Positions 31,497 to 53,591 of a DNA stretch of 64,000 nucleotides are shown piece by piece. Positions within the stretch are counted from its first letter, which is position 1, and every line of letters begins with the position of its first letter. This stretch comes from Pseudogymnoascus verrucosus (Eukaryota). The notes beneath the pieces are model-generated. The model did no database searches, was not told the DNA's origin, and saw only the letters and a list, made by a program, of their open reading frames with translations. The stretch is taken from NCBI GenBank assembly GCA_001662655.1, contig KV460227.1; one strand, 5' to 3'. The position numbers and the translations under genes were made by a program.

Positions 31497-32188
31497 AAGA
31501 CTTCATAGATCCACTACTGTATATTACTTGGCTGGCCAATATCACGACGAAATGACAATAACAGGAAGTTCTTGATGAAACCTGCTCGAACATTCATAGC
31601 ACAGTGAAAAAACTCGACATTAAATTCGTCTAACCCCTAGATATCCAATCTTATTCCTCATCTCGAGAACACCCGCTAATACCATTAATCTTCTCAAACT
31701 CCACCACTCCCACCTACTCAGGCGCCTTAAATTTCACACGAGTACGCCCCATTGCTAAACGAGATATAATAAATGCATTAGCTGGTTGGCGGACGGGTGG
31801 TTATGCTTAAAATTAAAGTTAGCGGGCCGGCGGGAGGGCGGGGCTAAGTAGGGGTCTGTCGTTATGTAACTTACCTTTTTCTTAAGACGTAGATAGACTA
31901 AATTAGAGTACGCGTTCTATACTCTCATCTACTGCAAACAAACTCCTTTCCGCGTCTCTCCTCCCCCTTTGTACTTTTGTCCTAGGTATATGTAACCAAC
32001 CCTTCAGCTCCCTCATTTACCTAGCTACCTTCCCTAAAAAGCACCTCTCACCCTCATCGAAACACTAATCACTCCTAAACTCCGCTATCGAATCCTCTAT
32101 GCGTAGCTATCTCTTATGGACAGAAGAGAGACAAAAAATTCGAAGGATTTAGAGGCTCATTAAGTTTCGCGGAAATACTGTGATTGAA

Positions 32189-35100: not shown

Positions 35101-35513
35101 TTTGCTAATGAGTTTGAGTCGCTTGTAACCATAGTTGCAGCCTTCTCTTGTAATGAGTGGAGGTTGATTGGAAGGTGTTTGTCGCAAATATCTTGTCTCC
35201 AGAATTCATCGATTAGATGGCCACAGTCAAGTTCGAGCAGTATACAGAAAACAAGAAGGCACCCATTGCGTTTATCAGACAATACATCCCGCGAGATTGG
35301 GAGAACGGGCCTATGACGGCTGCGTTTGCGGTATGCGAAATCAAGAAGATGGCTCGCCTGGGATCTACCGTCTGTTCCATTGCTCTCTAGCCAAAGCTTG
35401 AGCTTCTTCACCAGAACATAGTTTCGCCCACAGGCAGCTTTTTGGGTATATTTCTTTCGGGCAGCTCTGAAATCGGCTATGGCTGAGCTGTGATCGAGGG
35501 GAAGATTGTCCAT
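32189..35513 (-). CDS. Protein kinase fused to a C-terminal vWA domain, 6 exons
   Basis: Kinase motifs FAIK, NEKEAF, WHADIKPDNIL, KLADPG, GTETYSAPE, DIWSLGC. vWA motifs FLVDNAESM, LIVLTDG, VSIEFIQFG, LDDDL. Introns 34865-34790, 34400-34351, 34204-34146, 33132-33080 and 32564-32505 all keep frame. Confidence 0.85.
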
Positions 35514-36292
35514 CGTCGTGGGCTCGGGGTAGGGAATTCAAGGTAGGATTTAAGGGCAGACGGTCGGCGGCTTGGTCTCGAAAATGCTGCGACTGCGATC
35601 CCAATGTAACAACGGCATGCAGTCGCATAAGCCTTGTATAGGTGAGAGAACTCGAGGCTATAATCTGATGGCAGGTGCTAGGCGACTCAGACTCGGAGGG
35701 CGAAACAAATGCAATAGGATGTAGTTATATCAGTTTTGCGCGGAATGAAGAATTCGAGGCTGGGACATGCGCGCGCAGGCAGCTGGTGACTTGGACTCGG
35801 TCGGTGATGGTAGGAAACAAATGCAGCAGGCTTCAGTTAGAGTACATGAGTCGCGTATCTGGGCGCACGATTGTCACATTCAGGAGGGGCTCATCGGCGA
35901 TGTCAAGGTCCCAAAAACAAATATCCCCCGATAAAGAGATGACAGATTGAAAGAGAAAGGCGTGAGGCTGGCAGAACACGGCGATATTCCTTCAGCTGTG
36001 GCGGCTGGAGGCCTGCACCCCGCGGTGCAGGCCAGCCTTGCTACTGTCACGCAGACACACACGTGCTTTTGTGTCGAATCTGCTTTGATGTTAGGTCATT
36101 CTGTTGCATAGTTCGATCAAGATGAACAGTAATATTTCAACGTGAGAGTCTATAGAGGAAGATAAGATGTTTCTATGTTTCTTAGAGGTTGGTAGCAACT
36201 TCTAAGGGAGAAGGAGAGGGTCGAATTTAATGGAATGAGAGATTCTTGGTACTGTATCAGGCATGGTCACGTGAAAGTAGTACCATAAGCGA

Positions 36293-36804
36293 GGTAAGCA
36301 CGCTAATCTAGTATCCGCTAATCCACTTATCGTCGGAGCCGACGCCTTCAACCCGTCGGTTCCGACAATTAATCCGACAATTCCCCCCCGCTAAACCCAA
36401 CTAATCAAGGTACAGCCCTTACTGCCCCTCTTTCCCCTCTATTACCGCCTAATCTGAATGCAGCAGGAACTACTAATTACGATACGGATATCCTGTACCG
36501 CAGTGTTGTTCTAGTTTGTACCGCTAATACAAAATTACTACTGTAGGTACTTATATAGGTCTAGGTTATTGCTAATTATTAGATAAGTTGCCCTATAATA
36601 ACCTTAATGATAGAAGACAAAGGACAAACCTATATAGAACAACATAGTTACTACTACTATTAGGTATGCTGTTATACGAAAGGGGTTATATATATTGTTA
36701 GATTGCTTCATAATATGCATAATGGCTTACTATGAACGCCACAGCGTAAATCCGTAAATATAACTAGCAAAAGATCGATAAACTGCCGTTGCAGAGGGCT
36801 GATC
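36293..36804 (+). repeat. Left ~512 bp direct repeat, RIP-like mutated copy
   Basis: Colinear with 49639-50167 from ggtaagcacg to gagggctgatc; differences are mostly C>T and G>A. Confidence 0.93.
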
Positions 36805-37871
36805 CTAACCCTAAGCTCTAAAATGTCCTCTTTCTAATTAGGGACAGGGTAATATTTATAGGAACATTCTGCAACAACGATATAATGTACGATAGGATGA
36901 TCAAGGCGTTTAACAGTACAATTACGTTTGTAGGAGAGGAAGAACAGGCAAATGCATAGGAGAGGCGAGAATTTAGGTATTAGCATTTTGAGGCGTATTG
37001 TTACCGCGCGCCACTTAGGAAAGCTGTATGATACAGTGATAGTATGAGATGTATTAAGTTCCGATTTCAACCTCTCTAATCAACAAATAATCCTATTCAT
37101 CATCAGAGTCAGAGTCTCTGTTCTTTAACTCGTTGCAATAGCGGTGGGAGAAGGAGGCGCAACAAGAAAGCTCTTGGAATACAGTAAGAAAATGATAGGG
37201 CGAAGATGAGATGAGAAAATGGCTAATGATTTGAAAGTACAGGGTTCAGAAGCACGAAGCGCCCAAGGGAAATCTAGAGGGCAATGTGGATGGCAGTAGA
37301 TCCCGAAAGGAATGATTGGATCTAGTAGCATTCAGCTCCCTAGCCGTAGCTTATAGGCACATGGCCAATATAGGCGCTTTACTAGCCGCCCAAAGACATC
37401 CATCTCCTTGTATATTGTGGATGCAGTATAATAGCAGCTCCCAACAGTCACTCCGGGGTGTTGCCTGCTGTATCCCATTATTAATAGGCCTCGTGATCTG
37501 GCTGCTTTATGCAGGGGCTTCGGGGTGATAGATTAGCACCACATGAAGAACAGTTAATAGCATTAATTGTGAGCCCTCAACGCGTGTATAGTGCTCGAGT
37601 ATGAAGTCGGCCTTTACAACTATACGGATGATGGCGATTTAAAGTATTTTAGTCTACCACGTTAAAACCTCCTCATCGCCTTCACATCCCACAACCTTTA
37701 CCATAAGATATATATGTATCATTAGGGTGTATCACCCAAGCTACTACTTACATACATGTGCAAGAAAGTTGTCAAATATACATCTCTCATCATGACCGTC
37801 GTTTTACTTTGCAAAGACAGCAGCGTGTATGGTATGGATACAACCTAATTGGTACCTTTCCTGAATAATAT

Positions 37872-39852
37872 TTAGTTTTTAAGCTTAATCAGTATCCACG
37901 AAGCCACTCGATACCCAAGTACAATAGCCACCGTGATACCTATATTTCTACCAAACTGCCCCTTCTCTTCATATCCATACCGCTCCAAGACCGCTTTTCC
38001 AGCAACCTGGCACTGGTTAGCCAGGTCTGAGGCGTACATACAGCTGCAATGAGTGCCGCAGCTGTACTTTGCGCCGCGAAACTGGCTGACCATCAACCCC
38101 TGGAATGCGTAGGCGAGGTAGTCCCAATAGTGGATTCCGAAGCGGTAGAAGGGGTTTAGACTAGAGTATGAAATGAAGAAGCCCTGGCCGCAGAGGAGCA
38201 GACTGTTGAGGAACGAGGAGCAGGCTATGGTGAAGATGAAGTCGGGAAGGATGCATGCTACTACGACGACGAGGGCTTCGGCGGCTAATGCGGTGAGGAA
38301 GACCCAGAGAACCCAGGTGAAAAAGGCTGTGGCGGAGGGTACAAGGTTGGATAGCCAGTAGCAGGTGATAGAGAAGACGAGGCTCAGCAAGAAGTTGGTT
38401 GGTATGCTGATGAGGAAATTGGATACTGCAAACTCAGTGGGACCGTACAGGCCATTGTGAAAATCCTGCGCGGATTGCAGGTAATCCTCAATAAAGGCGG
38501 GCGCATAGATGATGGCCGCCATAGACATGAAGCAGAGCGCAAAGAAGATTTCGCTGACCAGGAATGAAATCGACTCCTGCTCGAGGTCGAGGCGCAGCCA
38601 TACTGTCCCAATTAAAATGGCAAAGCTGAGGGAAAACGCAAGCCGGATGCCGTAGGCCATAGGGTCGCGATAGGTCTTGACGAGGCTCCGGTGTAACAAC
38701 GTCACTGTCCGACTGCCCATTCTTGGTCTGTTGTTGCCTGACTCGATCTTCAGACATTCAGCTCCATTTTCGGCACACAAGATGGTGTCGTGGGCGGTCT
38801 TAGCGTTAGCAGATGCCTGCCAGGCAGACTGGAGCTCCACGAGTCGAAGAGCGGCATATACTTTATCTTGTGAGAAGTCAATGTTGACTAGCTCAAGAAG
38901 GAAATCCGGGACATTCGAGTGGAGTGGAATCTCGATGCCAATGTTGCTATAATACGCAACCACATCTGACACTGCGCCGAAGTAATGCGGCTTGCCTGCT
39001 GAAATTAGTAGCAACTTGTCAAAGAGGTTAAAAATCGATGTAGAGGGCTGGTGGATCGAGAAAATAATGATAAGGTTGTTTCTTCTTGCAAGGGCTTGTA
39101 GATATTGGACCACCTCAAAACTGGCGGCTGAATCAAGCCCTGACGTGGGTTCGTCGAGAAATAGAATCCTAGGTGACACTACGAGCTGTCTTGCGATTGC
39201 CACGCGCCGTTTTTGGCCGTCCGAAATGCCCTTGCGCAGCGATGTCCCGATGATTGTGTTCGCCTGGTCAGTGAGACCAAAAGATTCAAGAAGTGCGCTT
39301 ACTTGCACCAAACGTTCTGTCGATGACCTATTAATGTTTGTCAGCGTCTGTTAAGGTATATGCAGGTAGATTTCATGGCTCAATGCTTAACTTACCCATA
39401 TCTAGCAAGTCGCGAAGGAAATGACAACGTCTCATAAACGGATAGGCCTCCAATGAATACTTCTTCCTGGTTGACAAGGCAGCTGGCTTGGCGAAATTCA
39501 GATTTCGTCAACGGTCTCCCATTAACAAGAATGCTGCCTTCGATGCTCTTAGCTTTTGTTGACCGCCTGGCAAGAACATTTAATAGGGTTGTCTTTCCGC
39601 TCCCTGAAGGGCCCATTATGGCGCAGCATTCTCCTTTATAGATGTATTAGTCTCTTTCGTTGGAATACTCATTCTGGAAATTATAGAATAGAACGAACCA
39701 GCTTGTACAACTCCTTCGATATTGTCCACCAGGGTTTTTGATTGCTTGGTCTTGCGATCGGTGACGGTAACAGTAATACCACGCCATGTGATATTATGAA
39801 CAGTGGTATTGATTAGTTGCTTCTCTGAAGTAGGGCGCTGCTCTAGATCCAT
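37872..39852 (-). CDS. ABCG / White-type half-size ABC transporter (NBD-TMD), 3 exons
   Basis: Walker A GPSGSGKTT, signature variant ISDGQKRR, Walker B ILFLDEPTSGLD, SIHQP, six TM segments. Introns 39698-39634 and 39395-39328. Confidence 0.9.
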
Positions 39853-40520
39853 GTTGTTTGATATTCGGAAATCCAACCAGCACTATTTAATCAGCAACAA
39901 GGCCATATCAAACATATTTAGGGGCTGCACTAGGGAGCAAGCAACTATAGGGGAATCAGATCGTCTAACCATCCAGAGTAAAACCCTATAAAAGCGGGGA
40001 AGGTTACTACCGGTCGCGGTGAAACAGTACTCGTAGGGAAAAGGGTCTCACTTGAGGTACTTGGTTGGTAACTTGCTACGTAAAACGAACCAACTTTGAG
40101 ATGAATCATGACTTCAACTTTTTTTACCTGCATGCCCACGCATTAAACGTACGATATTGGCGCAGAGTCGCGGAATCCTCTCAAAAATTTAATTTCCATT
40201 CCTATCGACACCTCTACTCGGTGGTTTCCACATACTAGCTTCGCTCAGGTGACAGGCGTGACAGGCGACAACGCTTCGTGGATATGACAGCGGTTCGAGG
40301 ACAACACGTAAGCTTTATACGTTAATAATGACAACTTTAGTTATAACTATCAATATAATTATGATGCTATCGTGATGCCTTCCTCTCGTGACCTAGCGTA
40401 TACTTCTTGACCAATATAAAGTGGCAAGTTCTTCAAGGGAGAGGGATGCAGAGCTGTGAGATTGTCGTGTTGAAATACAGGAGTACCATCAAGAGTGATA
40501 GTGAGTTTTAGAATAGGGAC

Positions 40521-40596
40521 GATTAACATATGGGCGCAACTATCCATCACATATCAGAAACAATATGTGATGGATAGTTACTCCTGCATGTTAATC
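40521..40596. repeat. Foldback inverted repeat (hairpin)
   Basis: Perfect 17-bp arms aactatccatcacatat (40538-40554) and atatgtgatggatagtt (40563-40579), plus outer arms gattaacat / atgttaatc. Confidence 0.85.
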
Positions 40597-40839
40597 CACT
40601 AGAACCATACATAGGTATCTGAGCGCCGTTATTTCCTCTGAGGCTGAAGAGCGGTGAATGTTCCTAAACGGGTAGGTCTGAGCTTTAAGCATAAAAAATC
40701 GACAGTAAAACTGACGTGTCCCACCATCAAACCGTAGAGACCCGTCGTCTGACGACGTCCTCTACTTAGACCATTGGCTATTTGTCGACTTGTTTGTACG
40801 TATTATAGTTCATTGTTCCCACCTGAAGTCTTCTCCTGA

Positions 40840-40883
40840 ATGTCTCATTTCATCAACTGACATCAAGTTATGAAATGAGACAT
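40840..40883. repeat. Inverted repeat with 14-bp arms; the arm recurs at 41042-41055
   Basis: atgtctcatttcat (40840-40853) pairs with atgaaatgagacat (40870-40883). Confidence 0.85.
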
Positions 40884-41461
40884 CCGGGTCATTTATACGA
40901 ATTGTTGCCTATTTTCAGACCGCTAGACCATAATTAGATCTCTATGTCTCAATATATGACCTGGCTGGTTCTTGAGCCAATTTGTTCGTGCCCCGTGTTC
41001 AGATCCCCATTTTCAGATCTCTTGGTAATGATTAAATCCCTATGTCTCATTTCATGGCTAGCTGATTCCCAGACCAATTTCTTCTTGCCCAATTGTCATA
41101 TCCCCCGCTTAAACACAGAGTTAGAGATGGATATGACAAATAGCTGGCAGGAATGTGTAAATTTAGGGTACAGTTTCGTACATCATCACTAGGAGACTAA
41201 CTTGGGCATATACATCTACGTGGGTGGGTACGGTGTACGAAAAGAAAAGAGGGTGAATATTGAATCTCGCTGCATGAAACTAAGCTGAGGTAAGACAGAA
41301 CTCATAGAGTCACTAGAAAAGACTAGTCTGGCCGAAGGGTCTTTGAAAATGTGATAATGGCCCTATAGAAATGTTACATAAGACTATTATCCCTCTGTAG
41401 AGGCATTCAGCTACTCAATCACATCAGATACTTCGTCAAACCCTTGGTATATGCTTTTCAA

Positions 41462-44400
41462 ATGGATCATAGCAACGATGAACCCATCGCGGTGGTTGGG
41501 ATCGGATGTCGATACCCTGGCGGCATTTCATCCGTCACGGAATTCTGGGAGGCACTTCGAAATGGAAGCACCATGATGTCCGATATCCCACCTGATCGGT
41601 TTGACCATCATTCATTTCATGACCCTAATGGTAGGAGTCATGGTCGGATACAAAATACCAAAGGCGGCTTCATCCCAGATATTGACACATTTGACGCCGA
41701 GTTTTTTGGATACTTTCCAGCGGAAGCCTCCCGAATGGACCCTCAACAGAGGTTAGCCCTGGAGGCTTCCGTCCACGCCCTCGAGGACTCGGGGATCCCA
41801 TTGCACCAAGTAGCTGGATCATCCACTGGGGTATTCGTTGGAACGTTCCAGAATGATTACGCTGCCATACAAGTGAACGGCATGCAACGAGACCATTTCA
41901 ACCCTCATTCCAGTCTGGGTAGCGCAGCATGTGCCCTCTCAAACAGGGTGTCACATCGGCTAAACCTGCAAGGCCCCAGCATCACAGTGGACACTGCGTG
42001 TTCGTCGAGTTTGGTAGCTCTGCATCTCGCTTGTCAAAGTATCTGGACAGGAGAGAGCACGGCTGCCATTGCTGGCGGCGTAAACGCAATTCTACGGCCC
42101 GAACCTAGCATCCAACTTTCTACGTCCGGATTCCTGTCGGCGAGTGGGGCCTGCAAGTCGTTCGACAAGGATGCGGATGGTTATGTGCGTAGCGAGGGGG
42201 TTGGAATGGTCTTTCTCAAGCCCCTGAGCCGTGCATTCAAGGACAAAGACAGGATATACTCACTGATTCGAGGATCGCTGATCAATCAAGATGGGTATAC
42301 TGAGGGCGGATTCGCCGTTCCTAGCGCCAATGCCCAGATGGACCTCCTGCAATCTGTCTATCAGCGTTACGGGATTGATCCAGGTAGGGTTTGTTATGTT
42401 GAGGCTCATGGATCAGGAACTCAGATTGGTGACCCTATTGAAGCGCAGGCCCTGGGCGAGAAGATTGGACTGGCCCGCTCAAAGGAAGACGTACCTCTGT
42501 TGATTGGGTCTGTCAAAGGCAACTTAGGCCATATGGAGGGTGCCTCAGGTATCACTGGCTTTATTAAAGCTGCTCTGATCGCGTTCTACGGAGAGGTTCC
42601 CCCGCAGGCCAATTTTCAAACACCTAATCCTGCCATCAACTTTGAGAGGCTCCGTCTTGCCATTTCGACAACAGCAGCCGTTCTCCCACGAGGTATTAAC
42701 GGCGAACTAATTATCGCTGTCAACTCTTTTGGCGCAGGAGGAACAAATGCACACATCATTCTTCAAAATGCACCTCCGCAGCCATGCCAGCGTGCAAGTC
42801 GCTCTTCTCAAGCTAGAAATTGCCCCCAACTCTTTACCGTATCCGCCCGGTCTGCGGCCGCACTATCTGATACAGTCAAAGGGTTGGATCGACAGCTACG
42901 AGCGTCTCATCCTACAATAGAGGATGTTTCATACACTTTGAACATGCGACGAAGCCACCATTCCGAAATTTCCATTGTTGCGGCTTCAGGGATTGAAGAT
43001 CTCTGTTTCCAGCTCGAACAGATCGCGTCTGGGGAAGCATCGAAGGGAGTCTTGTCCTTCCGGCGGCAATCCGAAGTGAGGCCAAAGGTCGCCTTCGTAT
43101 TCTCTGGTCAGGGAGGCCAATGGGCCGGGATGGGCATGGGCCTTGCCGCTCAAGAACCTATATTTCGACAATCACTGGCTGATTTTGACGCGCATTTCAT
43201 CACTCTCTCAGGATGGTCCATTCGCGCAGAGATAGCCGCTTCCCACGATGACCCATTTTCTGCTGGCCGCACGATCGTAGTCCAACCGGCGATTGCGGCA
43301 ATTCAGATTGCATTGGCGAAGACATTGTCCTCATACGGCCTTAGGCCAGACGCTGTTGTTGGTCACTCTGTTGGTGAGGTTGCGGCCGCCCATATCAGTG
43401 GTGCCCTAACTCTTGAAGAGGCGGTAAAAGTGATCTACTGGAGGTCTCTAGTACAGAGCAAAGCCCAAGGAAAAGGGGCGATGTTAGCAGTCGGATTATC
43501 ATCTGCTGAACTACAGCACCACATCTGGCGACGCCGGTTGAAAGCACAAATTGAGATCGCTGGTATGAATGGGCCCCAGATGACAACATTAAGCGGGGAG
43601 ACAGAGGCTTTACAACAACTGCTTGAACATTTTGAGCAACAAGGGATATTTACGAGGTTTATTAAGGTCGACGTTCCATACCACAGTCGCTTTATGGACC
43701 CTCTTCGAGATGAGCTTGTAGACTCGCTCTCATCTATCAGCGGCGGAGAGGCCAATATCAGTCTCTACTCCACCGTTACAGCATCCATTGAACCTGGGAC
43801 TCATCTGACGGCAGAGTACTGGTTTGAGAACATTCGACAGCCGGTAAAATATGTGGAAACTGCGGGTAAAATATTGAAGGATGGTTATGGTTTCCTTATT
43901 GAGATTGGGCCTCACCCGGTCCTTGTCAGTGAAACCCGTCGCACTGCTGATGTTTTGAAGATGCCCGCTAATATTCTTCCCTCTATGTTTCGAGATAGTG
44001 ACACTGTACCCTTTTCACACCTAATCGGAGCAGCGCATGCCATGGGAGTTCCCGTGGACCTGGAATCGTTTGCCGGAGGTTGTGGGAAATTAATCGATCT
44101 GCCACTGTATCCGTTTCAACGCCAGCGTTATTGGTTCGAACATCCGGACGCACACCGCGTTCGTCGAGCGAAGGACCAACATCCTTTTCACAAGAGCTAT
44201 ACACGGCTGTCAGATGATGGCCTCGGTGTCCTACACCTTCGCCTTAGCACTGGGGTCTCGCCATTTCTCGCAGACCACGTCTTGGATGGAGCCGCTGTCT
44301 TTCCCGCCACTGGGCAGGCGGAGGCTGTGTTCCTAGCTGCTACAAAGCTCCTGCTTCCACAGAGTGCAACCAGTATTCGACTACAAGATATGAGATTTGA

Positions 44401-47400
44401 ACATGCCCTAGTGATGGCCGCAGCCGATGACTTCCCTCCACAGGTCCAGCTAGAAATTACCTCTGCCGCCCATGATTTCATTCTAAGCTTCCGAGCGGCT
44501 GATTCTAGCCCGGCTGATGCATGGCAAGTGATCTGTCGCGGACGGATCGACACATCTGATTCATTCTCACGGCCTAGCCTAGAAATGCTGGATACCGTAC
44601 AGTCACGAATCCAGACGGGAGAGGAGGTAGACATCAAAACATTCTATTCGACCTTGGAGAGAGCAGGTCTTCGGTACGGCGATGCCTTCCGCGGTGTACA
44701 GAAGATTTGGCGACTAGGGAACGATATCTTTGGGCTGGTAACGCTCCCCAAACTGCTTCACCAGGAGGCATCTCGCTTTAGAATTCACCCTGCCTTACTA
44801 GACGCATGTCTGCATACTATATATGTTGAACAACACTACCGTGGAAACTCCGCAGAAGTCTACCTCCCTTATGGCATCGAACATATAGAGATCTTCGACG
44901 CACGCGGGGCAACAGCTGCCGCAGTCCATGTCCAGATTACTTGTCATGACGAAATTTCGATTTGCGGCCGTATAAATGTCTACGACGCCTATGGCGAGCC
45001 GCTCGCTATTATGACAGGTGTCCGCGCAAAGCGTGTGCCAGGTCGTAGCGTTCCTAGCGTGTCTCAGTACGATATCTCTTTTCTCCCAGAGCCGGACAAC
45101 CAAATAGTTAAAATGGACTTTGAAAATGTGCTTGTACTTGAGCCGCTAGATCAAGCCTTGGACTGTACTCCCGTCATCCAAGGGGCATTTCCACATGCCC
45201 GTGTGCAGATACTCCAGCGCCCCTCCGCTCTAGCACCGCCCAAGATGCCCGTCAATCTGGATTTCCCTATGGATGGTCGCTCCCTCGTCCTTATTCCCAC
45301 TATAAGGAACTGTCACTCTGTGGGTTCAGCTGCAGACCTTCAGCTCAGTCTAGAATCGACTGTTAGCACACTTGTGGATATGGCGAACCGTCTTCACTCT
45401 CGCCAGGGGATTCCTTGGGTTATCGTTATCAGCCAGGGAGCCTGTGTTACACCAACCGATTCCCAGTGCGACCCATTCTCTTCGGCCCTACAAGCGGCAG
45501 TAAGGGTCATGGCAAATGAACTTCCATGGGTTCGAATCCGGTTGGTTGACCTTCCCCTCGGTCAGGTTCATGACTACCTCCCGTTACTCGGGGACGAGAT
45601 TGTAAGAGCACGACTAGGCCGAGATGAGAACGTAGTGGCGTTACGGTCAGCTGGAAGATTTGTCAAACGAGTTGTTCCCATCGAGACTGAGAATAAACAA
45701 AATGTAATGATGATGCCTGCTCGTGGCGGAGAGTACTTCGCGGAGCGTGATCGCGGGGGCTCCCTCGATGCAATTCATTTCCGGCAGCGTAACCCAGGAG
45801 AGGCTGTCTGCCTTGGACCGGATGATGTGAGCATCGAGGTTCATGCTGCAGGCCTAAACTTCAAAGACGCCATAAATAGCATAGGCATGCTAAGTGAGCG
45901 CGCTACCGTCGGGTCGCTGTCTGGGCTCCGACTTGGGTTAGAGGTCTCAGGAGTTGTGAGGGATATTGGTGATAACGTACAAAAGGTCAAGGTTGGGTCT
46001 CCAGTTACTGCTCGTGTGTGCGATGGGATCGCAGGGCATGTTGTAGCCCACCAGAGTCGGGTTAACCCCAAACCTACGCCGCTCGATATGGCGGAGGCCG
46101 CTGCTATCCCGGGAGCTTTTGTAACTGCACACTACGCCCTAGTGCACCTTGCTCGGCTTACACGGGGTGAGACCGTCCTCATCCATGCGGCCGCGGGTGG
46201 TGTGGGCATGGCCGCCATCCAGGTTGCTCATCTTGTTGGTGCCCAGGTATACGCCACCGCGGGCAGTCCCCACCGCCAAGCTGTCGTGGCCAAGTTACCA
46301 GGCGTTCAGGCGGTGTTCAGCTCTCGTTCCGCGTCATTTCGCAACGGCGTTAAAGCTGCTACGCATGGTCGCGGGGTAGACGTGGTATTGAACTCGCTAA
46401 GTGGAGAGCTCTTAGCTGAGTCGGTTGCGTGCCTTGCGCCTTTTGGGCGGTTTGTAGAGATTGGAAAGACTGATATCTACCGCAACATGCGGCTAGGACT
46501 AGAGCAATTCGGTCAGAACTGTTCTTTCTTCGTCGTTGATGTCGACAGATTAACCAAACAAAAACCAGCGTTAAATAGTCAGATTCAAGATGAAGTCGCC
46601 ACGTTACTCGAGACAAAGCAGCTCAAGTCCTTCCCTATAGTCAAGTTCCCCGTCATAGAACTGAAAACGGCGCTGACTGCGCTTTTACGGTCCGAGATCA
46701 TTGGGAAGGCCGTGGTTGAGATGCCTGATTTGACTGAGGTCCCCGTCGTTCCATGCGACCGACTTCACTTGCGTGGGGATCGAGCCTACCTCGTGACTGG
46801 AGGCACCAGCGGGCTGGGTTTGCATCTTGCTGCATTTCTGGTTGACCGAGGAGCGCGACATTTGGTGCTAGTCAGTCGGTCAGGCCCAAAATCGCCAGAT
46901 GACCAGGCGACGATCGACGGCCTGCATCGGCGTGGTGTCAATGTATGGGTTGAACGAGCAGATATAAGTTGCAGCGAAAAAGTCAATGCTCTATTCGCGC
47001 AAGGTAGAGAATGGCCAACGATATCCGGGGTCATCCACTGTGCCGCAGTGGCAGGAAATGAATTGATAAAGGATGTCACGACTAATACATTCCGGCAGGC
47101 CTTTGAGCCCAAGGCGATGGGGGCATGGCACCTACATGAGGCCACGAAGAACATGCCACTAGATTTCTTTGTTTTAATCTCATCTATCGCCACTTTAGTC
47201 GGATTTCCTGGACAGTTGAGCTATACAGCTGCTAACCAGTTTCTCAATGGATTGGCACATTCTCGTCGTCTCTCCGGCCTGCCCGCACTGGCTCTTAACT
47301 ACGGCGCTATGGGGAACTTTGCTGGTATTTTTAAAAATTCAACACAGGACGCTGACACCATAATCCAGCTTAATATGACCAGAGGCGTGTTTCAAATAAG

Positions 47401-48793
47401 TCTCCCGGACGTGCTGTCTACCTTAGAGCGGGCCATGCTTGAGGATGCTACGGAGCGAATGCCTGCGGATATCGACTGGCGCATGTTTATCGCTTCAGCT
47501 CCTCACCTATATCTAGACGCCACTTTCATGGGTCTTCTGCAGGACAGCGCTAACACTCGTACACCAGAAAGTTTTGGATCTGGTACCGGACCACGGACCG
47601 CCCCAGAGATCGCTGATGTTTTACACGCTGGGCTCGCAAAAATCCTAGGTGTTGAAGAGGGACGAATCTCCCGGGCGGCAGGGCTTGAGCGATATGCTCC
47701 AGACTCGCTGACCCTCGCACAGGTTCGAGGCATGATTCAACGTGATATACGGGTATCCTATCCTATCGTAAAACTCTTTAACAATCCTACTATTGAGGAC
47801 ATTGCGCAAGAGCTTGAGAGATCTTTGAATTTAGATCCCGCTGAGGCGCAGAGCTCGACAGTCGAAAACGGTCACAGCCATACTCAGCAAGATAACCATT
47901 CCGTTGCTCTAACAGTCATCTCCCCTTGGTTTATCCGAGGTTGCGACGATGCCATCGTTAAATCCCAACCTCGTCTACTCTGTATCCACCCAATGGCCGC
48001 AGACGCTTCTTTCTTCACCCCATATCTAGTTGACCCCCCTCGCGGGCTAGACGCAATTGCTGTCCAAATTCCTGGTCGCGATAACAGAGCAGATGAACCA
48101 ATCCCATCGAGCGTCTCCGAGATTGTATCAGGGCTACTCGCCGAATTGGATTCAGTTATTGGTGCCACGCACATCATTTGGGGTCATTCCTTCGGCGGGA
48201 TAGTCGCTTTTGAGGTGATCAGAGAAATGAGACGTCGTGGAGTCCACCCGCTTCCGCAATTGTTGCTCACTGGCACTATTGCCCCTCATCTAATGTCCTC
48301 CTGGCAGAGTGCAATAAGTTTACAATGGGCGTTTGCAGAGGATATTAACCCGGATTATGCCTTGGCCGTCTCACGCTACACCGAAGACCCACACTTTTTC
48401 CGGAATATTCTCCCGCTTTTCAAACGAGACTCACCTTGGTTTTCGAATTACGTCTTTGTCGAAGAAGAGCCGCTCAATGTGCCGATTACCGCGTTTGCAG
48501 CTCGTCAGGACGACATGGTGTATCCAGACCAGGTTGCGGGTTGGGATGTTCAGACGGACAAGTTCGAGTTTGTCGAGGTCGACGGGGATCACTGGTTCAT
48601 TCACAAGAACCGTCAAGTGATTCGGGGGGCGTTGGAAAGAATGGCCTCCTCACCTAGAGAGGAATCAAGGGCGGTGGAAGTAGTCTGTCCAAGTGATGCA
48701 GATAAGGTAAAGGGTGAGGTTGCGGAGGCGGCAAACGTAGTAGAGGCTAGGGTAGTGGTTATGGGAGCTGTTGAGGTAGTGGTTGAGGTATAG
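41462..48793 (+). CDS. Intronless type I reducing polyketide synthase KS-AT-DH-ER-KR-ACP-TE (2443 aa)
   Basis: KS: DTACSSS, EAHGSGT, KGNLGHMEGASG. AT: GHSVG, PYHS. DH: HVLDGAAVFP, LLDACLH. ER: HAAAGGVG. KR: GGTSGLG, YTAAN. ACP: PDSL. TE: GHSFG, GDHWF. No C-methyltransferase motif seen. Confidence 0.95.
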   Translation: MDHSNDEPIAVVGIGCRYPGGISSVTEFWEALRNGSTMMSDIPPDRFDHHSFHDPNGRSHGRIQNTKGGFIPDIDTFDAEFFGYFPAEASRMDPQQRLALEASVHALEDSGIPLHQVAGSSTGVFVGTFQNDYAAIQVNGMQRDHFNPHSSLGSAACALSNRVSHRLNLQGPSITVDTACSSSLVALHLACQSIWTGESTAAIAGGVNAILRPEPSIQLSTSGFLSASGACKSFDKDADGYVRSEGVGMVFLKPLSRAFKDKDRIYSLIRGSLINQDGYTEGGFAVPSANAQMDLLQSVYQRYGIDPGRVCYVEAHGSGTQIGDPIEAQALGEKIGLARSKEDVPLLIGSVKGNLGHMEGASGITGFIKAALIAFYGEVPPQANFQTPNPAINFERLRLAISTTAAVLPRGINGELIIAVNSFGAGGTNAHIILQNAPPQPCQRASRSSQARNCPQLFTVSARSAAALSDTVKGLDRQLRASHPTIEDVSYTLNMRRSHHSEISIVAASGIEDLCFQLEQIASGEASKGVLSFRRQSEVRPKVAFVFSGQGGQWAGMGMGLAAQEPIFRQSLADFDAHFITLSGWSIRAEIAASHDDPFSAGRTIVVQPAIAAIQIALAKTLSSYGLRPDAVVGHSVGEVAAAHISGALTLEEAVKVIYWRSLVQSKAQGKGAMLAVGLSSAELQHHIWRRRLKAQIEIAGMNGPQMTTLSGETEALQQLLEHFEQQGIFTRFIKVDVPYHSRFMDPLRDELVDSLSSISGGEANISLYSTVTASIEPGTHLTAEYWFENIRQPVKYVETAGKILKDGYGFLIEIGPHPVLVSETRRTADVLKMPANILPSMFRDSDTVPFSHLIGAAHAMGVPVDLESFAGGCGKLIDLPLYPFQRQRYWFEHPDAHRVRRAKDQHPFHKSYTRLSDDGLGVLHLRLSTGVSPFLADHVLDGAAVFPATGQAEAVFLAATKLLLPQSATSIRLQDMRFEHALVMAAADDFPPQVQLEITSAAHDFILSFRAADSSPADAWQVICRGRIDTSDSFSRPSLEMLDTVQSRIQTGEEVDIKTFYSTLERAGLRYGDAFRGVQKIWRLGNDIFGLVTLPKLLHQEASRFRIHPALLDACLHTIYVEQHYRGNSAEVYLPYGIEHIEIFDARGATAAAVHVQITCHDEISICGRINVYDAYGEPLAIMTGVRAKRVPGRSVPSVSQYDISFLPEPDNQIVKMDFENVLVLEPLDQALDCTPVIQGAFPHARVQILQRPSALAPPKMPVNLDFPMDGRSLVLIPTIRNCHSVGSAADLQLSLESTVSTLVDMANRLHSRQGIPWVIVISQGACVTPTDSQCDPFSSALQAAVRVMANELPWVRIRLVDLPLGQVHDYLPLLGDEIVRARLGRDENVVALRSAGRFVKRVVPIETENKQNVMMMPARGGEYFAERDRGGSLDAIHFRQRNPGEAVCLGPDDVSIEVHAAGLNFKDAINSIGMLSERATVGSLSGLRLGLEVSGVVRDIGDNVQKVKVGSPVTARVCDGIAGHVVAHQSRVNPKPTPLDMAEAAAIPGAFVTAHYALVHLARLTRGETVLIHAAAGGVGMAAIQVAHLVGAQVYATAGSPHRQAVVAKLPGVQAVFSSRSASFRNGVKAATHGRGVDVVLNSLSGELLAESVACLAPFGRFVEIGKTDIYRNMRLGLEQFGQNCSFFVVDVDRLTKQKPALNSQIQDEVATLLETKQLKSFPIVKFPVIELKTALTALLRSEIIGKAVVEMPDLTEVPVVPCDRLHLRGDRAYLVTGGTSGLGLHLAAFLVDRGARHLVLVSRSGPKSPDDQATIDGLHRRGVNVWVERADISCSEKVNALFAQGREWPTISGVIHCAAVAGNELIKDVTTNTFRQAFEPKAMGAWHLHEATKNMPLDFFVLISSIATLVGFPGQLSYTAANQFLNGLAHSRRLSGLPALALNYGAMGNFAGIFKNSTQDADTIIQLNMTRGVFQISLPDVLSTLERAMLEDATERMPADIDWRMFIASAPHLYLDATFMGLLQDSANTRTPESFGSGTGPRTAPEIADVLHAGLAKILGVEEGRISRAAGLERYAPDSLTLAQVRGMIQRDIRVSYPIVKLFNNPTIEDIAQELERSLNLDPAEAQSSTVENGHSHTQQDNHSVALTVISPWFIRGCDDAIVKSQPRLLCIHPMAADASFFTPYLVDPPRGLDAIAVQIPGRDNRADEPIPSSVSEIVSGLLAELDSVIGATHIIWGHSFGGIVAFEVIREMRRRGVHPLPQLLLTGTIAPHLMSSWQSAISLQWAFAEDINPDYALAVSRYTEDPHFFRNILPLFKRDSPWFSNYVFVEEEPLNVPITAFAARQDDMVYPDQVAGWDVQTDKFEFVEVDGDHWFIHKNRQVIRGALERMASSPREESRAVEVVCPSDADKVKGEVAEAANVVEARVVVMGAVEVVVEV

Positions 48794-49254
48794 GGGATGG
48801 AGCGAGCCTGTACTATACCACCTTCTACTATCCTCATTCCTAAATAATTGTGGCAATTTACTATTTTGTCAAAAAGCCCCTGCTACTACTTAACCTCATG
48901 TTATTTATGCCTTTCCACCTAAATTGGTCACTACAAGTGGGGTCAGGTTCGTGGTTGGATTGGAAAATATATTATACATAATTTTATCAAATGATAAACT
49001 TCATATATAAAATAGGCATAGCTGTACTTCTACTATACATAGAACGCACTATGCTATACTATTAATAATAAATGAAGCATGGGCGAGCATGGCTAAAACG
49101 AGAGCTGCTGGGGTAGGATACGGACTGAGAGCTTCACCTACGGTAAAGCGACGTTTGTTTTTAAATGTAGTGGGGCATTTTAAATAGAAGCATGGGACTT
49201 TAATAGTAAGGTTAAGTCATGTTCAAGCTTTCAATTCTCATCCTAGTCGTTTGT

Positions 49255-49459
49255 TTCCCAGTACTCCATTTCCCAGCACTTTATTTCCCAGTGCTCCAGT
49301 TCCCAGCGCTCCAGTTCCCAATGCTACAGTTCCCAATGCTACAGTTCCTAATGCTCCAGTTCCCAATGCTACAGTTCCCAATGCTACAATTCCCAGTACT
49401 CCATTTCCCAGTACTCCATTTCCCAGTGCTCCAGTTCCCAATGCTCCAGTTCCCAGCCG
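49255..49459. repeat. 15-bp minisatellite (TTCCCA[AG]TGCT[CA]CAG), 13 full copies plus a partial one
   Basis: Exact 15-bp periodicity from 49255. Confidence 0.95.
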
Positions 49460-49465
49460 TGTAGT

Positions 49466-49637
49466 TCTCATTTTTCGGCACAGGCCGTATCCAACACACC
49501 AAGACATTAACTGTTATACATATAACTCCAATTATCCAAATCGACTTGTCGTACTGCGTCCCGTTGTATCGAAAGATGATGCTAAATATGATGCCCCCAA
49601 GATTTCCTGCAGCCCCAACAGTGCCTGACACGATACC
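49466..49637 (-). pseudogene. Orphan C-terminal fragment of an NrtA/CrnA-type high-affinity nitrate transporter
   Basis: [24 protein letters not shown]...SIWIIGVI...WIRPVPK resembles the last two TMs and nitrate signature of fungal NRT2 proteins. The upstream part is replaced by the right direct repeat. Confidence 0.75.
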
Positions 49638-49638
49638 T

Positions 49639-50167
49639 GGTAAGCACGCCAACCCGGTATCCGCTAATCCACTTATCATCGGAACCGTTTCCTTCAACCG
49701 TCGGTTCCGACAATTAATCCGACAAATTAATCCGACAATTCCCCCCCGCTAAACCTAACTAATCAAGGTACAGCCCTTACAACCCTTACTGCCCCTCTTT
49801 CCCCCATCTCACCGCCCAATCCGAATGCAGCGGGAACTGCCAATCGCGATACGGATATCCCGTACCGCAGTGTTGTTCCAGTTTGTACCACCCAATACAA
49901 AATTACTACTGTGGGTACTTATCCAGGTCTGGTTATCGCTGATTATCGGATAAGTTGCCCCGCAATGACCTCAACGATAGAAGATGAAGGACAAATCTAT
50001 ACAGAACAACACAGTTACTACTATCAGGTATGCCGTCATACGAAAGGGGTTACATACATGCTAGACTGCTTCATAATATGCATAATGGCTTACTATGAAC
50101 GCCACGGCGTAAATCTGTAAATATAACTAGGAAATGATCGTCAAACTGCCGTTGCGGAGGGCTGATC
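49639..50167 (+). repeat. Right ~529 bp direct repeat, less mutated copy
   Basis: Colinear with 36293-36804. Contains internal inverted repeat tcggaaccg...cggttccga and small tandem duplications (aattaatccgaca; cccttac). Confidence 0.93.
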
Positions 50168-50773: not shown

Positions 50774-51838
<1,065 letters not shown>

Positions 51839-53591
51839 ATGAGTGATGATGGTGGGTTATGGGAATTTTATATATGGATATGATGGATGGATGGGGAGGG
51901 GAGCCAAGGCCTACGGGCGTGTGCTGAGGGATGGATGGATAGCAAATAGAGAATGATCTTGGTAGGATGTGGAATAAAAGCCAATTGATCCCCCCAATGA
52001 ATTTTTACGTGCTGGGTATGTGAAGTTGGAGGGTGATGATGGATAGCTAACTATGTGCTTCCTATTCTCACTTGAGATAAGTCTCGGCCGCCCTCAATCC
52101 TACACGAATGTCGAGAGTGCCCGGTGGGTATAAATACAACGCCAAACTCCCCCTTGACGTTTCTTCCTCACAGCTACAATATATTGGTTTGATTGCGGCT
52201 AGCGGAATTCGAATCGACATAAAACGTTTGAACCAGGTCGTATAGATCATTTCAGGCGGCGGGCTGTCTCGTGGAAAGTTCGGGTTCAGATTCGGTGGGC
52301 TCGTGCTGGTGCTGGTGCTGGTGCTGGTTCTGATTCCGGAATTGTTGATGTTGTTGCTGTCGAGTAGTTCTCACCGTCAACCAATGATTTTGTCGTTTAC
52401 GCATGCTGTTGTGGGCTTTTCTGTCGCCGAACAGAAGGGGAACGTTTTCGCCGGAGACTTCTCACACTGGCCTGCTCGGTGGATCGTCCCTGTACCCGAC
52501 GATCTGTGTTGTCCTCTTTCCACCCTATGACTTGCGGTATAATATATCTTCTGTGCAGAACTGGGGGTTTTATAGGCTGGTGGGTGGATTGGTGGTTTGC
52601 GGAAGTGGTTGTCATATATGTCACTGATATGTGAATAGATGGGGGCAAAACTCGGAGGTATGGATATATCTGTTTACAGTTCCTCTTCGAGGTACGTCTT
52701 TTCCACAACTCCCCCGCTCGAAGAGGATATATGAAGGCAGGTGAGTATGTCAGCGAGGAGCAGCACAGATAGACCCGTCAGACTAATAATCATGGGTTAT
52801 ATAGTGGTCGTGAGGGAGGAAGCGGCGCTATCAAAACTTTCGTCCCAATCATAGATGAGGAAGAGGCGCAAAGGAAGAGTATGAATAGAGTCCGGGAAAG
52901 AGGAAAAATAATTCCGTATTTCGATGGATGACGAGGTAGTGGTTTGGAGGGCTCTCGGTGTCGCGCTGTTGTCACCAGGCCGCTGTCACCGAGGATGCTG
53001 CAACCAGATGTTTTTGTCACCGAGACACATTCCAAATCTTGTTGTCGCCCCGAGGTTCGCTGGCTGTCAGTCGTAATATTCAGACTTGGATTCGATTGTT
53101 AACGCCCTCGGCAGCGATATCTATCAACGGCTTCTACAAACCGTACTGGGATGCCATGTAATCGTCATCAAGGTAGCCATTCTCGTCTATGCGCATCATT
53201 GCAACATACTGTGAACTATTTATACCCCCATCAATACTGTTCTAACTGTCTTTTGAGGCTAGTTCCCAAGACAAAAATGAAACCACGTGATATCGTGTCA
53301 CTAACGCGGTGCTGCCTTCCCTTGCTCTCACAAAAGCCAAAGGGTCACAATTGAACCCCGCGTGACAATAGCCACCATGCACTCTTTTACCCTGAGCCCT
53401 TGCTCTGCTCAAATTACCGCCAGCACATGAACTTCATCTCCAGGCTACAACGACAAACAGATCAAGAAGCACAGAATGAAGTTGACGCGATAGACACGCC
53501 GAGTGACAGAATTTTGTCGCGTTCTCTGCGTGTATGCAAGTCATCGCCGCGACGCAAGGGTGGCACTGACCACTCACACTTCCCGCGATCG

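What the first reader, a model, noticed from the sequence alone, without database searches (positions are those of the whole stretch)
41462..48793. Intronless, bacterial-style reducing PKS with a C-terminal thioesterase in a fungus
Seen: a 7.3 kb ORF without introns, domain order KS-AT-DH-ER-KR-ACP-TE, no C-MT. Established: fungal highly reducing PKSs usually contain introns and lack a fused TE. Motifs such as GHSVGEVAAAHISGALTLEEA and LPLYPFQRQRYW, and a GrsT/TEII-like TE (AVQIPGRDNRADEP, WGHSFGG, GDHWF), read like bacterial modular PKS. Inference: horizontally acquired synthase that releases its own reduced polyketide or fatty-acid-like product, with no tailoring genes in the cassette.
Basis: partly seen in the sequence, partly recalled or inferred. 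Interest (0 to 1): 0.8.

Follow-up and report, generated by a model that had tools for sequence, protein, structure and literature searches.

The report
Bacterial-type reducing polyketide synthase in fungus
An intact, intron-free 2443-residue lipid-making polyketide synthase in a Pseudogymnoascus fungus belongs to a small group of fungal enzymes whose nearest non-fungal relatives are bacterial, so the family most likely entered fungi from bacteria long ago and then spread patchily among fungi.

Summary
Window 41462-48793 (+) is one uninterrupted 2443-aa ORF with the order KS-AT-DH-psiKR-ER-KR-ACP-TE. It has no methyltransferase, every catalytic motif is intact, and the thioesterase resembles type II thioesterases.

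The enzyme is not a canonical fungal HR-PKS. It belongs to a family of about 2400-aa single-module PKS-TE proteins found mainly in Planctomycetota, also in Bacteroidota, Verrucomicrobiota and Myxococcota, and in a patchy set of Pezizomycotina. In trees all fungal members form one clade nested among the bacterial ones. An AU test rejects a separate bacterial clade (p 1e-5).

It is not a private, recent bacterial acquisition. The nearest relatives are dermatophyte proteins (65% identity), and the window copy sits inside an otherwise Eurotiomycete subclade, away from other Leotiomycetes. That points to later movement between fungi, or to paralogue loss.

The PKS and a divergent ABCG half-transporter lie between 530-bp direct repeats. 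No tailoring gene lies inside that unit.

The product is unknown. The inferred product is a reduced fatty-acid-like chain freed by the TE, but an editing role for the TE is not excluded. No canonical fungal HR-PKS sequence could be put in the trees.

The parts
41462..48793 (+). PKS gene: a single exon of 2443 codons plus the stop
   Evidence: a GenBank protein of the same length is 98-99% identical
41480..42616 (+). Ketosynthase (res 7-385). Cys in DTACSSS, His in EAHGSGT, His in GHMEGASG
43094..44050 (+). Acyltransferase (res 545-863). GHSVGE is present. The second specificity motif reads VPYH(S), which is non-canonical but conserved in the family
44180..45043 (+). Dehydratase (res 907-1194). 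HxxxGxxxxP and the HPALLD motif are present
45044..45811 (+). Linker and structural psiKR (res 1195-1450). No methyltransferase signature
   Evidence: no meaningful Pfam hit at E<=10; aligns to the psiKR-ER part of MAS chain 5bp4
45815..46717 (+). Enoylreductase (res 1452-1752). The AAGGVGMAA nucleotide-binding motif is present. Best PDB match is the CurK ER, 197 bits
46784..47311 (+). Ketoreductase (res 1775-1950). GGTSGLG is present, and the Ser, Tyr and Asn are present
47621..47812 (+). Acyl carrier protein (res 2054-2117), with the DSL serine
47972..48619 (+). Thioesterase of type II kind (res 2171-2386). Ser in WGHSFGG (S2243), Asp in ARQDD, His in GDHWF
37872..39882 (-). ABCG-type half-transporter (nucleotide-binding domain then ABC-2 membrane domain). 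It is read from three ORF pieces and is divergent from the PKS across a 1.6-kb spacer
   Evidence: a 615-aa GenBank protein is 99% identical and is recorded on a longest contig of the same length (32093 bp) as the PKS orthologue
36293..36804 (+). Left copy of a direct repeat that brackets the ABC and PKS genes. It carries the excess of T/A at mismatches
49639..50167 (+). Right copy of the direct repeat (84% identity over 535 aligned bases)

Best explanation
The gene encodes an intact, single-module type I synthase. It presumably works iteratively and reduces fully. It has the MAS-like layout KS-AT-DH-psiKR-ER-KR-ACP with a type-II-like thioesterase fused at the C-terminus. Most likely mechanism, all inferred: the AT loads malonyl units; KS, KR, DH and ER build a largely saturated, unbranched acyl chain on the ACP; the cis TE (Ser2243-Asp-His) hydrolyses it to a free fatty-acid-like product. 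The divergently placed ABCG half-transporter may export that product. Evolution, shown by trees: the enzyme belongs to a family of about 2400-aa PKS-TE proteins whose diversity lies in bacteria, above all Planctomycetota. One branch of that family entered Pezizomycotina once, long ago. The Pseudogymnoascus copy sits inside an Eurotiomycete subclade next to dermatophyte copies. It reached this lineage either by fungus-to-fungus transfer or by survival of one of several old paralogues. In the window it lies with the ABCG gene between 530-bp direct repeats.
For: MAS-like layout without a methyltransferase: PDB best match is MAS at 887 bits. NCBIfam best match is Pks2 at 1097 bits, below its cutoff of 2400. 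psiKR evidence is.

TE of type II kind.

Family: a search with the C-terminal 494 aa found 130 proteins at E<=0.001, of which 120 were listed. Nearly all share the full domain set and a length of 2350-2530 aa.

Bacterial genomes: 41 loci, of which 33 are Planctomycetota by record title, 5 Bacteroidota, 1 Chthoniobacteraceae, 1 Myxococcota and 1 unclassified.

Full-length identity to the window protein: Nannizzia 64.7%, other Eurotiomycetes 47-55%, Tricladium 47%, Roseimaritima ulvae 42%.

Trees: in the 105-row full-length FastTree the 24-row fungal clade has support 100. In the 90-row KS tree rooted on 28 KS domains of modular PKSs the family has support 93, and the fungal clade (98) lies inside two starred bacterial nodes. 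An AU test rejects holding the 38 non-fungal family rows together (delta lnL 128, p 1.1e-5). In the 34-row full-length tree the window with the dermatophytes (100) lies inside a 17-row clade that is otherwise Eurotiomycete (100). An AU test rejects window plus the Tricladium group as one clade (p 1.9e-5).

Not contamination: genes split into several ORFs, as expected for introns, a fungal-specific transcription-factor domain, GH31 and other fungal genes lie on both sides in the same window. The same protein occurs in three named Pseudogymnoascus records. A 12.2-kb contig of another run spans the ABC and PKS genes.

Codon use differs from the neighbours: GC3 is 0.50 against 0.53-0.84, and the RSCU correlation with pooled neighbours is 0.25 against 0.47-0.87 for the other genes.

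Direct repeats flank the two genes.
Against: No canonical fungal HR-PKS, 6-MSAS or animal FAS sequence could be placed in the trees. Their distance rests only on PDB bit scores, and for the KS alone those differ modestly: 393-352 for bacterial chains against 322-316 for PsoA and LovB.

The sister of the fungal clade, P0148, is an unnamed metagenome protein. No donor lineage can be named.

Both AU groups were defined after the trees had been seen.

Odd codon use can also reflect low expression.

No RNA data were found, so expression is unknown.

The second AT specificity motif, VPYH, is non-canonical, so the malonyl prediction rests on GHSVGE alone, which is a recalled rule.

In the Helotiales subclade (Tricladium, Hyaloscypha, P0141, P0143) the TE serine is glycine. 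The TE nucleophile may therefore be dispensable, which weakens the idea that the TE is the releasing step.

The nearest relatives of the ABCG gene are Sordariomycete proteins, not dermatophyte or Aspergillus ones. The two genes therefore do not share one history.
Confidence: 0.65

Rival explanations
1. The TE is an editing (proof-reading) domain, not the releasing step. It would clear mis-primed or stalled acyl-ACP. The mature chain would be taken off by a trans-acting enzyme encoded elsewhere, or passed directly to an acceptor.
For: The TE is closest to stand-alone editing type II thioesterases. The cis type II TE of CylH has editing, not terminating, activity (PMC5707447, abstract and passages). 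The catalytic Ser is Gly in the Helotiales subclade while the rest of the protein stays intact.
Against: No other release domain is present in the protein and no release enzyme lies in the repeat-bounded unit. The TE is highly conserved from fungi to bacteria, with a mean column identity of 61%. Other cis type II-like TEs (AjuTE, JerTE) are reported in the same paper to terminate. Human TE II, which is among the hits, releases chains from FAS (its role is recalled).
Confidence: 0.25
2. The family is ancestrally fungal. It was inherited vertically with many losses, and the bacterial copies descend from a fungus-to-bacterium transfer.
For: The root of the family rests on distant modular KS domains only. 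The closest outgroup to the fungi is unnamed.
Against: Bacterial members span at least four phyla, branch below and around the fungal clade, and cannot be forced into one clade (p 1.1e-5). The closest structures and profiles are bacterial. The best 150 of 1.84 billion representatives for psiKR-ER-KR include only two entries known to be fungal, P0123 and P0162, both members of this family. Of the other 148, only 10 were looked up, 2 of those carry a telling name, and both names are bacterial. The fungal distribution is patchy.
Confidence: 0.08
3. A recent, direct transfer from a bacterium into this Pseudogymnoascus lineage. This is the simplest reading of the first reader's text.
For: The ORF has no introns. 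Its codon use is unlike that of its neighbours. It lies between direct repeats.
Against: The nearest relatives are fungal at 47-65% identity, while the best bacterial protein is 42% identical. GC3 of 0.50 is below that of the neighbours, which does not suggest a GC-rich planctomycete donor (planctomycete GC content is recalled). None of the bacterial loci carries homologues of the window's neighbouring genes.
Confidence: 0.03
4. An assembly artefact or bacterial contamination.
For: None found.
Against: The gene is contiguous with fungal genes on both sides. The same gene occurs in three named Pseudogymnoascus records. Contigs of two other runs cover it.
Confidence: 0.01

Closest known systems
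Uncharacterised single-module PKS-TE of Planctomycetota (for example Roseimaritima ulvae P0171, and Limnoglobus roseus PX52 locus L006)
   Same: The same eight regions in the same order. Length 2400-2450 aa. 40-42% identity over about 2360 aligned columns. The same TE motifs (WGHS[FY]GG, AARQDD, VDGDHWF) and the same AT motif V[PA]YHS.
   Different: In bacteria the gene is usually followed by a giant Ser/Thr-kinase-GAF-histidine-kinase gene. That gene is absent from the window. No function is known for either the bacterial or the fungal proteins.
Mycobacterial MAS-like PKSs (mycocerosic acid synthase, Pks2)
   Same: KS-AT-DH-psiKR-ER-KR-ACP, a single iterative module with full reduction. They are the best PDB and NCBIfam matches.
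   Different: MAS has no fused TE. The window protein scores 1097 bits against a Pks2 cutoff of 2400, so it is not an equivalog. Its AT carries GHSVGE rather than the methylmalonyl-type motif (recalled rule).
Cis type II thioesterase domains in type I PKSs (CylH-TE, AjuTE, JerTE)
   Same: A type-II-like alpha/beta-hydrolase TE fused to the end of a type I PKS (PMC5707447).
   Different: Those sit on modular assembly lines. Here the TE ends a single reducing module. Its role, editing or release, is untested.
Canonical fungal highly reducing PKSs (LovB, LovF, PsoA PKS part)
   Same: A single-module reducing type I PKS in a filamentous fungus.
   Different: Those have a C-MT or its remnant between DH and ER and no TE. 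Their PDB scores against this protein are lower (537-577 against 887 for MAS). This protein shows no MT trace.
Fungal 6-MSAS-type partially reducing PKSs
   Same: They are the precedent for a fungal type I PKS lineage with bacterial affinity and a proposed bacterial origin (PMC9146135 and PMC12953777, passages).
   Different: Their layout is KS-AT-(DH/TH)-KR-ACP, with no ER and no TE of this kind. They are a different clade.
Animal fatty acid synthase
   Same: The same order of catalytic domains, ending in a TE.
   Different: FAS has a psiMT. The KS score is only 261 bits. The FAS TE is not among the TE matches at E<=0.001, whereas the stand-alone TE II is.
Bacterial mono-modular PKS/FAS families (SwfA, SupA, WcbR/RkpA)
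   Same: SwfA is KS-AT-DH-ER-KR-ACP, a single module expected to make an acyl chain (PMC3908369, passages).
   Different: SwfA has no fused TE and works with a reductase-sulfotransferase partner. Its relationship to this family was not tested.

Membership tests
Type I reducing PKS of MAS-like layout | A single module in the order KS-AT-DH-psiKR-ER-KR-ACP | tested here: met
   Pfam order; psiKR-ER aligns to MAS; MAS is the best PDB match
Type I reducing PKS of MAS-like layout | Catalytic residues of all domains present | tested here: met
   Motif check on the window protein and 14 family members
Type I reducing PKS of MAS-like layout | Iterative chain extension on one module | not testable with these tools
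   Inferred from the single module only
Mycobacterial Pks2/MAS equivalog (NCBIfam NF041183) | Score at or above the curated cutoff | tested here: not met
   1097 bits against a cutoff of 2400
Planctomycete-type PKS-TE family | Full-length collinear homology including the fused TE and its motifs | tested here: met
Planctomycete-type PKS-TE family | Placement inside the family in trees | tested here: met
Planctomycete-type PKS-TE family | Adjacent giant kinase/GAF/histidine-kinase gene | tested here: not met
   No homologue of the window's neighbours in the bacterial loci. Pfam finds no such gene beside the window PKS
Canonical fungal HR-PKS | C-MT or its remnant between DH and ER | tested here: not met
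Canonical fungal HR-PKS | No fused thioesterase; release in trans | tested here: not met
   PF00975 domain at 2171-2386
Canonical fungal HR-PKS | KS nests in fungal HR-PKS clades | tested here: inconclusive
   No HR-PKS reference sequences could be obtained. The only proxies are PDB scores (LovB 316 and PsoA 322 against PikA1 393 and CurL 383) and the family trees
Type II thioesterase (PF00975, editing TEs) | Sequence likeness to RifR/RedJ-type TEs and a Ser-Asp-His triad | tested here: met
Type II thioesterase (PF00975, editing TEs) | A free-standing protein | tested here: not met
   It is fused to the ACP in one ORF
Type II thioesterase (PF00975, editing TEs) | Editing activity on mis-primed carrier proteins | not testable with these tools
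   Needs an enzyme assay

The most novel reading that the evidence does not exclude
The PKS-TE family makes a lipid signal rather than a toxin or a storage lipid. In Planctomycetota the synthase is hard-wired to a giant sensor protein (Ser/Thr kinase, AAA16, TPR, GAF, histidine kinase, two receiver domains, Hpt) that could sense or control its product. A branch of this signal synthase was captured by Pezizomycotina and kept, patchily, as a self-contained one-enzyme pathway. In this fungus it is paired with an ABCG exporter. The fungi would then make a bacterial-type signalling lipid that could act on, or eavesdrop on, bacteria carrying the cognate sensor.
Probability: 0.1. Interest if true: 0.8.

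Novelty: new variant of a known kind. Interest (0 to 1): 0.55.

Why it matters
Bacterial origin has been proposed for fungal 6-MSAS-type PKSs and for one hybrid NRPS/PKS. A fully reducing, MAS-like PKS with a fused type II thioesterase, shared between Planctomycetota and a scattered set of ascomycetes including dermatophytes, Aspergillus, Penicillium, Fusarium and Ophiocordyceps, did not turn up in the eight literature searches made here.

If the reading is right, it adds an independent route by which fungi gained polyketide or lipid chemistry. It also gives a one-gene pathway, with no tailoring genes, that is easy to express. And it links an uncharacterised, widespread planctomycete synthase to a testable product.

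On the ordinary reading, it is one more orphan PKS with an unusual ancestry.

Tried and rejected
- A whole-protein homology search timed out. It was replaced by region searches.
- The KS-region search was dominated by multi-module actinobacterial PKSs, because the scores of several KS domains add up. It was used only as a source of outgroup KS domains.
- No whole genome is held for the window, so native HR-PKS genes of this fungus could not be used as references.
- The metagenome scan aimed at fungal-like contigs gave 26 loci. Only two short ones were Helotiales-like: L042 (2.4 kb) and L046 (1.9 kb), at 75-80% to P0143. Synteny among fungal orthologues therefore could not be examined.
- No RNA holder was listed for the gene, so nothing can be said about expression.
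- The joint '36501 to 49894' in contigs of runs X1 and X2 first looked like an allele lacking the ABC-PKS segment. It lies inside the two copies of the direct repeat, and the contig ends 95-100 bases later. It is not taken as evidence for an empty site.
- A fragment at 49284-49748 (-) looked by eye like the end of an MFS transporter. Pfam does not support this, so the idea was dropped.
- The representatives search and two name look-ups gave no named canonical fungal HR-PKS sequence.
- The protein-atlas look-up lists only bacteria-dominated clusters for KS-AT. It is treated as a lead only.
- Literature: the eight searches found no paper on this fungal clade. FgnA of fumigermin (PMC7034978), the medaka and sea-urchin PKSs (PMC4604110) and the myriocin PKS (PMC13612406) were checked and are unrelated.
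Full report
**What is there.** Window 41462-48793 (+) is one open frame of 2443 codons. Pfam finds the following:
- KS at residues 7-385, with its C-terminal extension to 518
- AT at 545-863
- DH at 907-1194
- ER at 1452-1752
- KR at 1775-1950
- ACP at 2054-2117
- a PF00975 thioesterase at 2171-2386

No methyltransferase is found. The 256 residues between DH and ER give no meaningful Pfam hit even at E<=10. They align with the psiKR-ER part of mycocerosic acid synthase. The layout is therefore KS-AT-DH-psiKR-ER-KR-ACP-TE. All catalytic motifs are intact and conserved in the family: KS Cys-His-His, AT GHSVGE, DH HxxxGxxxxP and HPALLD, the ER and KR nucleotide motifs, KR Ser-Tyr-Asn, ACP DSL, and TE Ser-Asp-His.

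**Which organism, and is the gene really part of it.** A GenBank protein of the same length from Pseudogymnoascus sp. 24MN13 is 98-99% identical. Its 90% cluster also holds proteins of Pseudogymnoascus sp. VKM F-103 and P. verrucosus. The window carries ordinary fungal genes on both sides:
- a class V aminotransferase
- a gene with a fungal-specific transcription-factor domain
- an MFS transporter
- Mmc1
- a GH31 glycosidase
- a 1579-aa ORF ending in a BRCT domain

Several of these are split into pieces, as expected for genes with introns. A 12.2-kb contig from another public run covers the ABC transporter and the PKS in one piece. Contamination is not a serious option.

**What kind of synthase.** For the whole protein the best solved relative is mycobacterial mycocerosic acid synthase, at 887 bits. 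Scores for other chains are: Dictyostelium PKS16 652, pig FAS 598, PsoA 577, LovB 537. The best NCBIfam model is mycobacterial Pks2, at 1097 bits against a cutoff of 2400, so this is a likeness and not membership.

With the KS alone the order is as follows:

| PDB chain | bits |
|---|---|
| PikA1 | 393 |
| CurL | 383 |
| Pks13 | 364 |
| GfsA | 358 |
| MAS | 352 |
| DEBS | 333 |
| PsoA | 322 |
| LovB | 316 |
| FAS | 261 |

One higher row, 7zma at 619 bits, matches in two stretches, so its score is a sum. The gradient favours bacterial KS domains but is not steep.

The TE matches 14 PDB sequences at E<=0.001. Almost all are free-standing type II thioesterases: 6vap, RedJ, RifR, human medium-chain TE II, TesA, YbtT and the surfactin TE subunit. 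The weakest row is a PKS chain. The thioesterase of animal FAS is not among them.

**The family.** A search with the last 494 residues found 130 proteins at E<=0.001, of which 120 were listed. Nearly all are 2350-2530 aa long with the same Pfam set, including PF00975.
- 23 carry fungal names: Pseudogymnoascus, Nannizzia, Trichophyton, six Penicillium, eight Aspergillus, Exophiala, Fonsecaea, Fusarium oxysporum, Hyaloscypha, Tricladium and three Ophiocordyceps.
- 11 carry bacterial names: Planctomycetota including Roseimaritima ulvae and Gemmataceae, Chthoniobacteraceae, Flavobacteriales, Bacteroidota and Cyclobacteriaceae.

A scan of one genome per prokaryotic species, using a TE alignment as the query, gave 41 loci. 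By record title 33 are Planctomycetota, 5 Bacteroidota, 1 Chthoniobacteraceae, 1 Myxococcota and 1 unclassified. One locus lies in the complete genome of Limnoglobus roseus PX52.

Full-length identity to the window protein is as follows:
- Nannizzia 64.7% and Trichophyton 64.0%
- other Eurotiomycetes 47-55%
- Fusarium 50.6%
- Tricladium 47.0%
- Ophiocordyceps 45-46%
- Roseimaritima ulvae 42.0%
- Bacteroidota 35-37%

The alignment is collinear through every domain.

**Trees.**
1. Full-length FastTree. It uses 105 rows, namely P0001 and the proteins P0122-P0240 that are at least 2200 aa long. 15 shorter rows were dropped, and the near-identical P0026 was left out. All named fungi, with four unnamed proteins, form one clade of 24 rows (support 100). 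Its successive sisters are P0148 (unnamed), P0223 and a Flavobacteriales group. P0223 is the PKS of a Myxococcota MAG.
2. KS tree by IQ-TREE. It has 62 family rows and 28 KS domains taken from the modular PKSs: the 12 best-scoring and 16 drawn at random out of 364. Rooted on those, the family holds together (support 93). P0239/P0240 and a Bacteroidota group branch first (100 and 99). The fungal clade (98) lies inside the remaining bacterial rows.
3. AU test on the KS tree. It rejects the best tree in which the 38 non-fungal family rows are held together (delta lnL 128, p 1.1e-5).
4. Full-length tree of 34 rows. The window protein with the two dermatophyte proteins (100) lies inside a clade of 17 rows (100). 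Its other named members are all Eurotiomycetes, and it also holds two unnamed proteins. The Helotiales-type proteins (Tricladium, P0141, P0143) branch at the base of the fungal clade. An AU test rejects window plus that group as one clade (p 1.9e-5).

Both AU groups were named after I had seen the trees, which weakens the p values. The trees contain no canonical fungal HR-PKS, because no tool gave me such a sequence. A search of 1.84 billion representatives with psiKR-ER-KR returned 150 best hits. The only entries in that list known to be fungal are P0123 and P0162, both members of this family. Of the other 148, I looked up ten single-module hits of 2239-2805 aa. Two of those carry a telling name, and both names are bacterial: Kiloniellales and 'myxalamid-type MxaB'.

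**Reading of the history.** The family's diversity is bacterial. The fungal branch is single and nested, so one old transfer from a bacterium into Pezizomycotina is the best reading. The donor cannot be named.

The Pseudogymnoascus gene does not group with other Leotiomycetes. It sits within Eurotiomycete copies. This needs either fungus-to-fungus transfer or old paralogues with many losses.

Two local features fit a later arrival without proving it.
- The PKS has GC3 of 0.50 against 0.53-0.84 for eight neighbouring ORFs. Its RSCU correlation with the pooled neighbours is 0.25, against 0.47-0.87 for the others.
- The PKS and the divergent ABCG gene lie between direct repeats, 36293-36804 and 49639-50167, which are 84% identical over 535 aligned bases. 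Of 59 mismatches in 511 compared columns, 51 are transitions, and 42 have T or A in the left copy where the right copy has C or G. That pattern is the one expected from repeat-induced point mutation.

The nearest named relatives of the ABCG protein are Beauveria (60%) and many Sordariomycetes (51-56%). No dermatophyte, Aspergillus or Penicillium protein is among the 120 listed. The two genes therefore do not share one history.

**Mechanism.** What is shown: a complete set of active-looking domains for full reduction, a carrier protein and a hydrolase triad. What is inferred: the single module works iteratively on malonyl units and gives a mostly saturated, unbranched chain. The malonyl prediction rests on GHSVGE, a recalled rule. 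The second specificity motif reads VPYH, which is neither of the two classical forms, though it is conserved in the family. The TE would then free the chain as an acid, and the ABCG half-transporter is a plausible exporter.

The main functional rival is that the TE edits rather than releases. This was shown for the cis type II TE of CylH, while AjuTE and JerTE terminate (PMC5707447, abstract and passages). In the Helotiales subclade the TE serine is glycine. That fits a dispensable TE nucleophile.

No tailoring gene lies inside the repeat-bounded unit. The SDR gene at about 50774-51838 lies outside it.

**A hint from bacteria.** Of the 41 loci, 33 have at least 2.5 kb of sequence downstream of the TE. 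In 21 of them my script found a homologue of a roughly 2130-aa protein starting within 1.5 kb of the TE end. Three more (L009, L017, L022) have full-length matches ending at the same place. The script missed them only because a second kinase upstream widened the hit span. That gives 24 of 33.

Pfam reads this protein as Ser/Thr kinase, AAA_16, TPR, GAF, HisKA, HATPase, two receiver domains and Hpt. In L001 and L006 it is followed by a receiver-HATPase_c_2 protein. In two Bacteroidota loci a phosphopantetheinyl transferase and a GAF protein lie nearby. This linkage suggests a signalling role for the product in bacteria. Nothing like it lies beside the fungal gene.

**Literature.** Eight full-text searches found no paper on this fungal clade. 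Bacterial affinity of fungal 6-MSAS-type PKSs is discussed in PMC9146135 and PMC12953777 (passages). SwfA is a mono-modular KS-AT-DH-ER-KR-ACP synthase of sponge symbionts without a TE (PMC3908369, passages). Subscription journals are not covered by the library, so a description elsewhere is possible.

**Verdict.** This is a bacterial-type synthase and a real member of a bacteria-centred family. It was acquired by fungi long ago and is shared with many other ascomycetes. It is not a private acquisition of this fungus, and its product and the role of its TE remain untested.

Noticed in passing
L001:10820-17218, L006:10330-17010, L018:10903-17304 and others: In planctomycete genomes the PKS-TE gene is followed by a giant signalling gene of about 2130 aa: Ser/Thr kinase, AAA_16, TPR, GAF, HisKA, HATPase, two receiver domains and Hpt. 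In L001 and L006 a receiver-HATPase_c_2 gene comes next. The giant gene is present in at least 24 of the 33 loci that have enough downstream sequence.
   Followed up: partly
Proteins P0146, P0140, P0141, P0143 (TE motif): In the Helotiales-type subclade (Tricladium, Hyaloscypha and two metagenome proteins) the TE nucleophile motif reads WGHGFGG, with Ser replaced by Gly. The rest of the protein is intact.
   Followed up: partly
window 36293-36804 and 49639-50167: Direct repeats, 84% identical over 535 aligned bases, bracket the ABCG and PKS genes. The mismatches are mostly transitions, with T/A in the left copy, as repeat-induced point mutation would give.
   Followed up: yes
window 49255-49456: A tandem array of a 15-bp unit (13.5 copies, 86% matches) lies just downstream of the PKS stop, inside the repeat-bounded unit.
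   Followed up: no
window 51600-52263 (loose ends at 52185 and 52230): Contig depth in run X2 rises to 372 here against about 18 elsewhere, and contigs break at 52185 and 52230. A short high-copy element probably lies here.
   Followed up: no
window 30000-38000: A low-GC stretch (0.42-0.47) lies upstream of the unit. It includes a kinase-like gene at 33115-35537 (-) whose pieces give no Pfam hit at E<=0.01.
   Followed up: partly
window 53355-58094: A 1579-aa ORF with no Pfam hit at 1e-5. A BRCT domain is found in its last 364 residues (E 9e-5). It is probably a checkpoint-type housekeeping protein unrelated to the PKS.
   Followed up: partly
L038:4430-9967 and L038:10013-10702: In a Cytophagales MAG the thioesterase is a separate 230-aa ORF directly after an 1845-aa PKS ORF. 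This is either a natural split form or a frameshift.
   Followed up: no
L001:18361-19554; L026:11125-12957: Other neighbours of bacterial family members are a NAD_binding_4 ('male sterility', fatty-acyl reductase type) protein in L001 and a sulfotransferase in the Myxococcota locus L026. They hint at further processing of an acyl product.
   Followed up: no
window 37872-39882: The nearest named relatives of the ABCG half-transporter are Sordariomycete proteins (Beauveria 60%, Fusarium and others 51-56%), not Leotiomycete ones. Its own history may also be unusual.
   Followed up: partly
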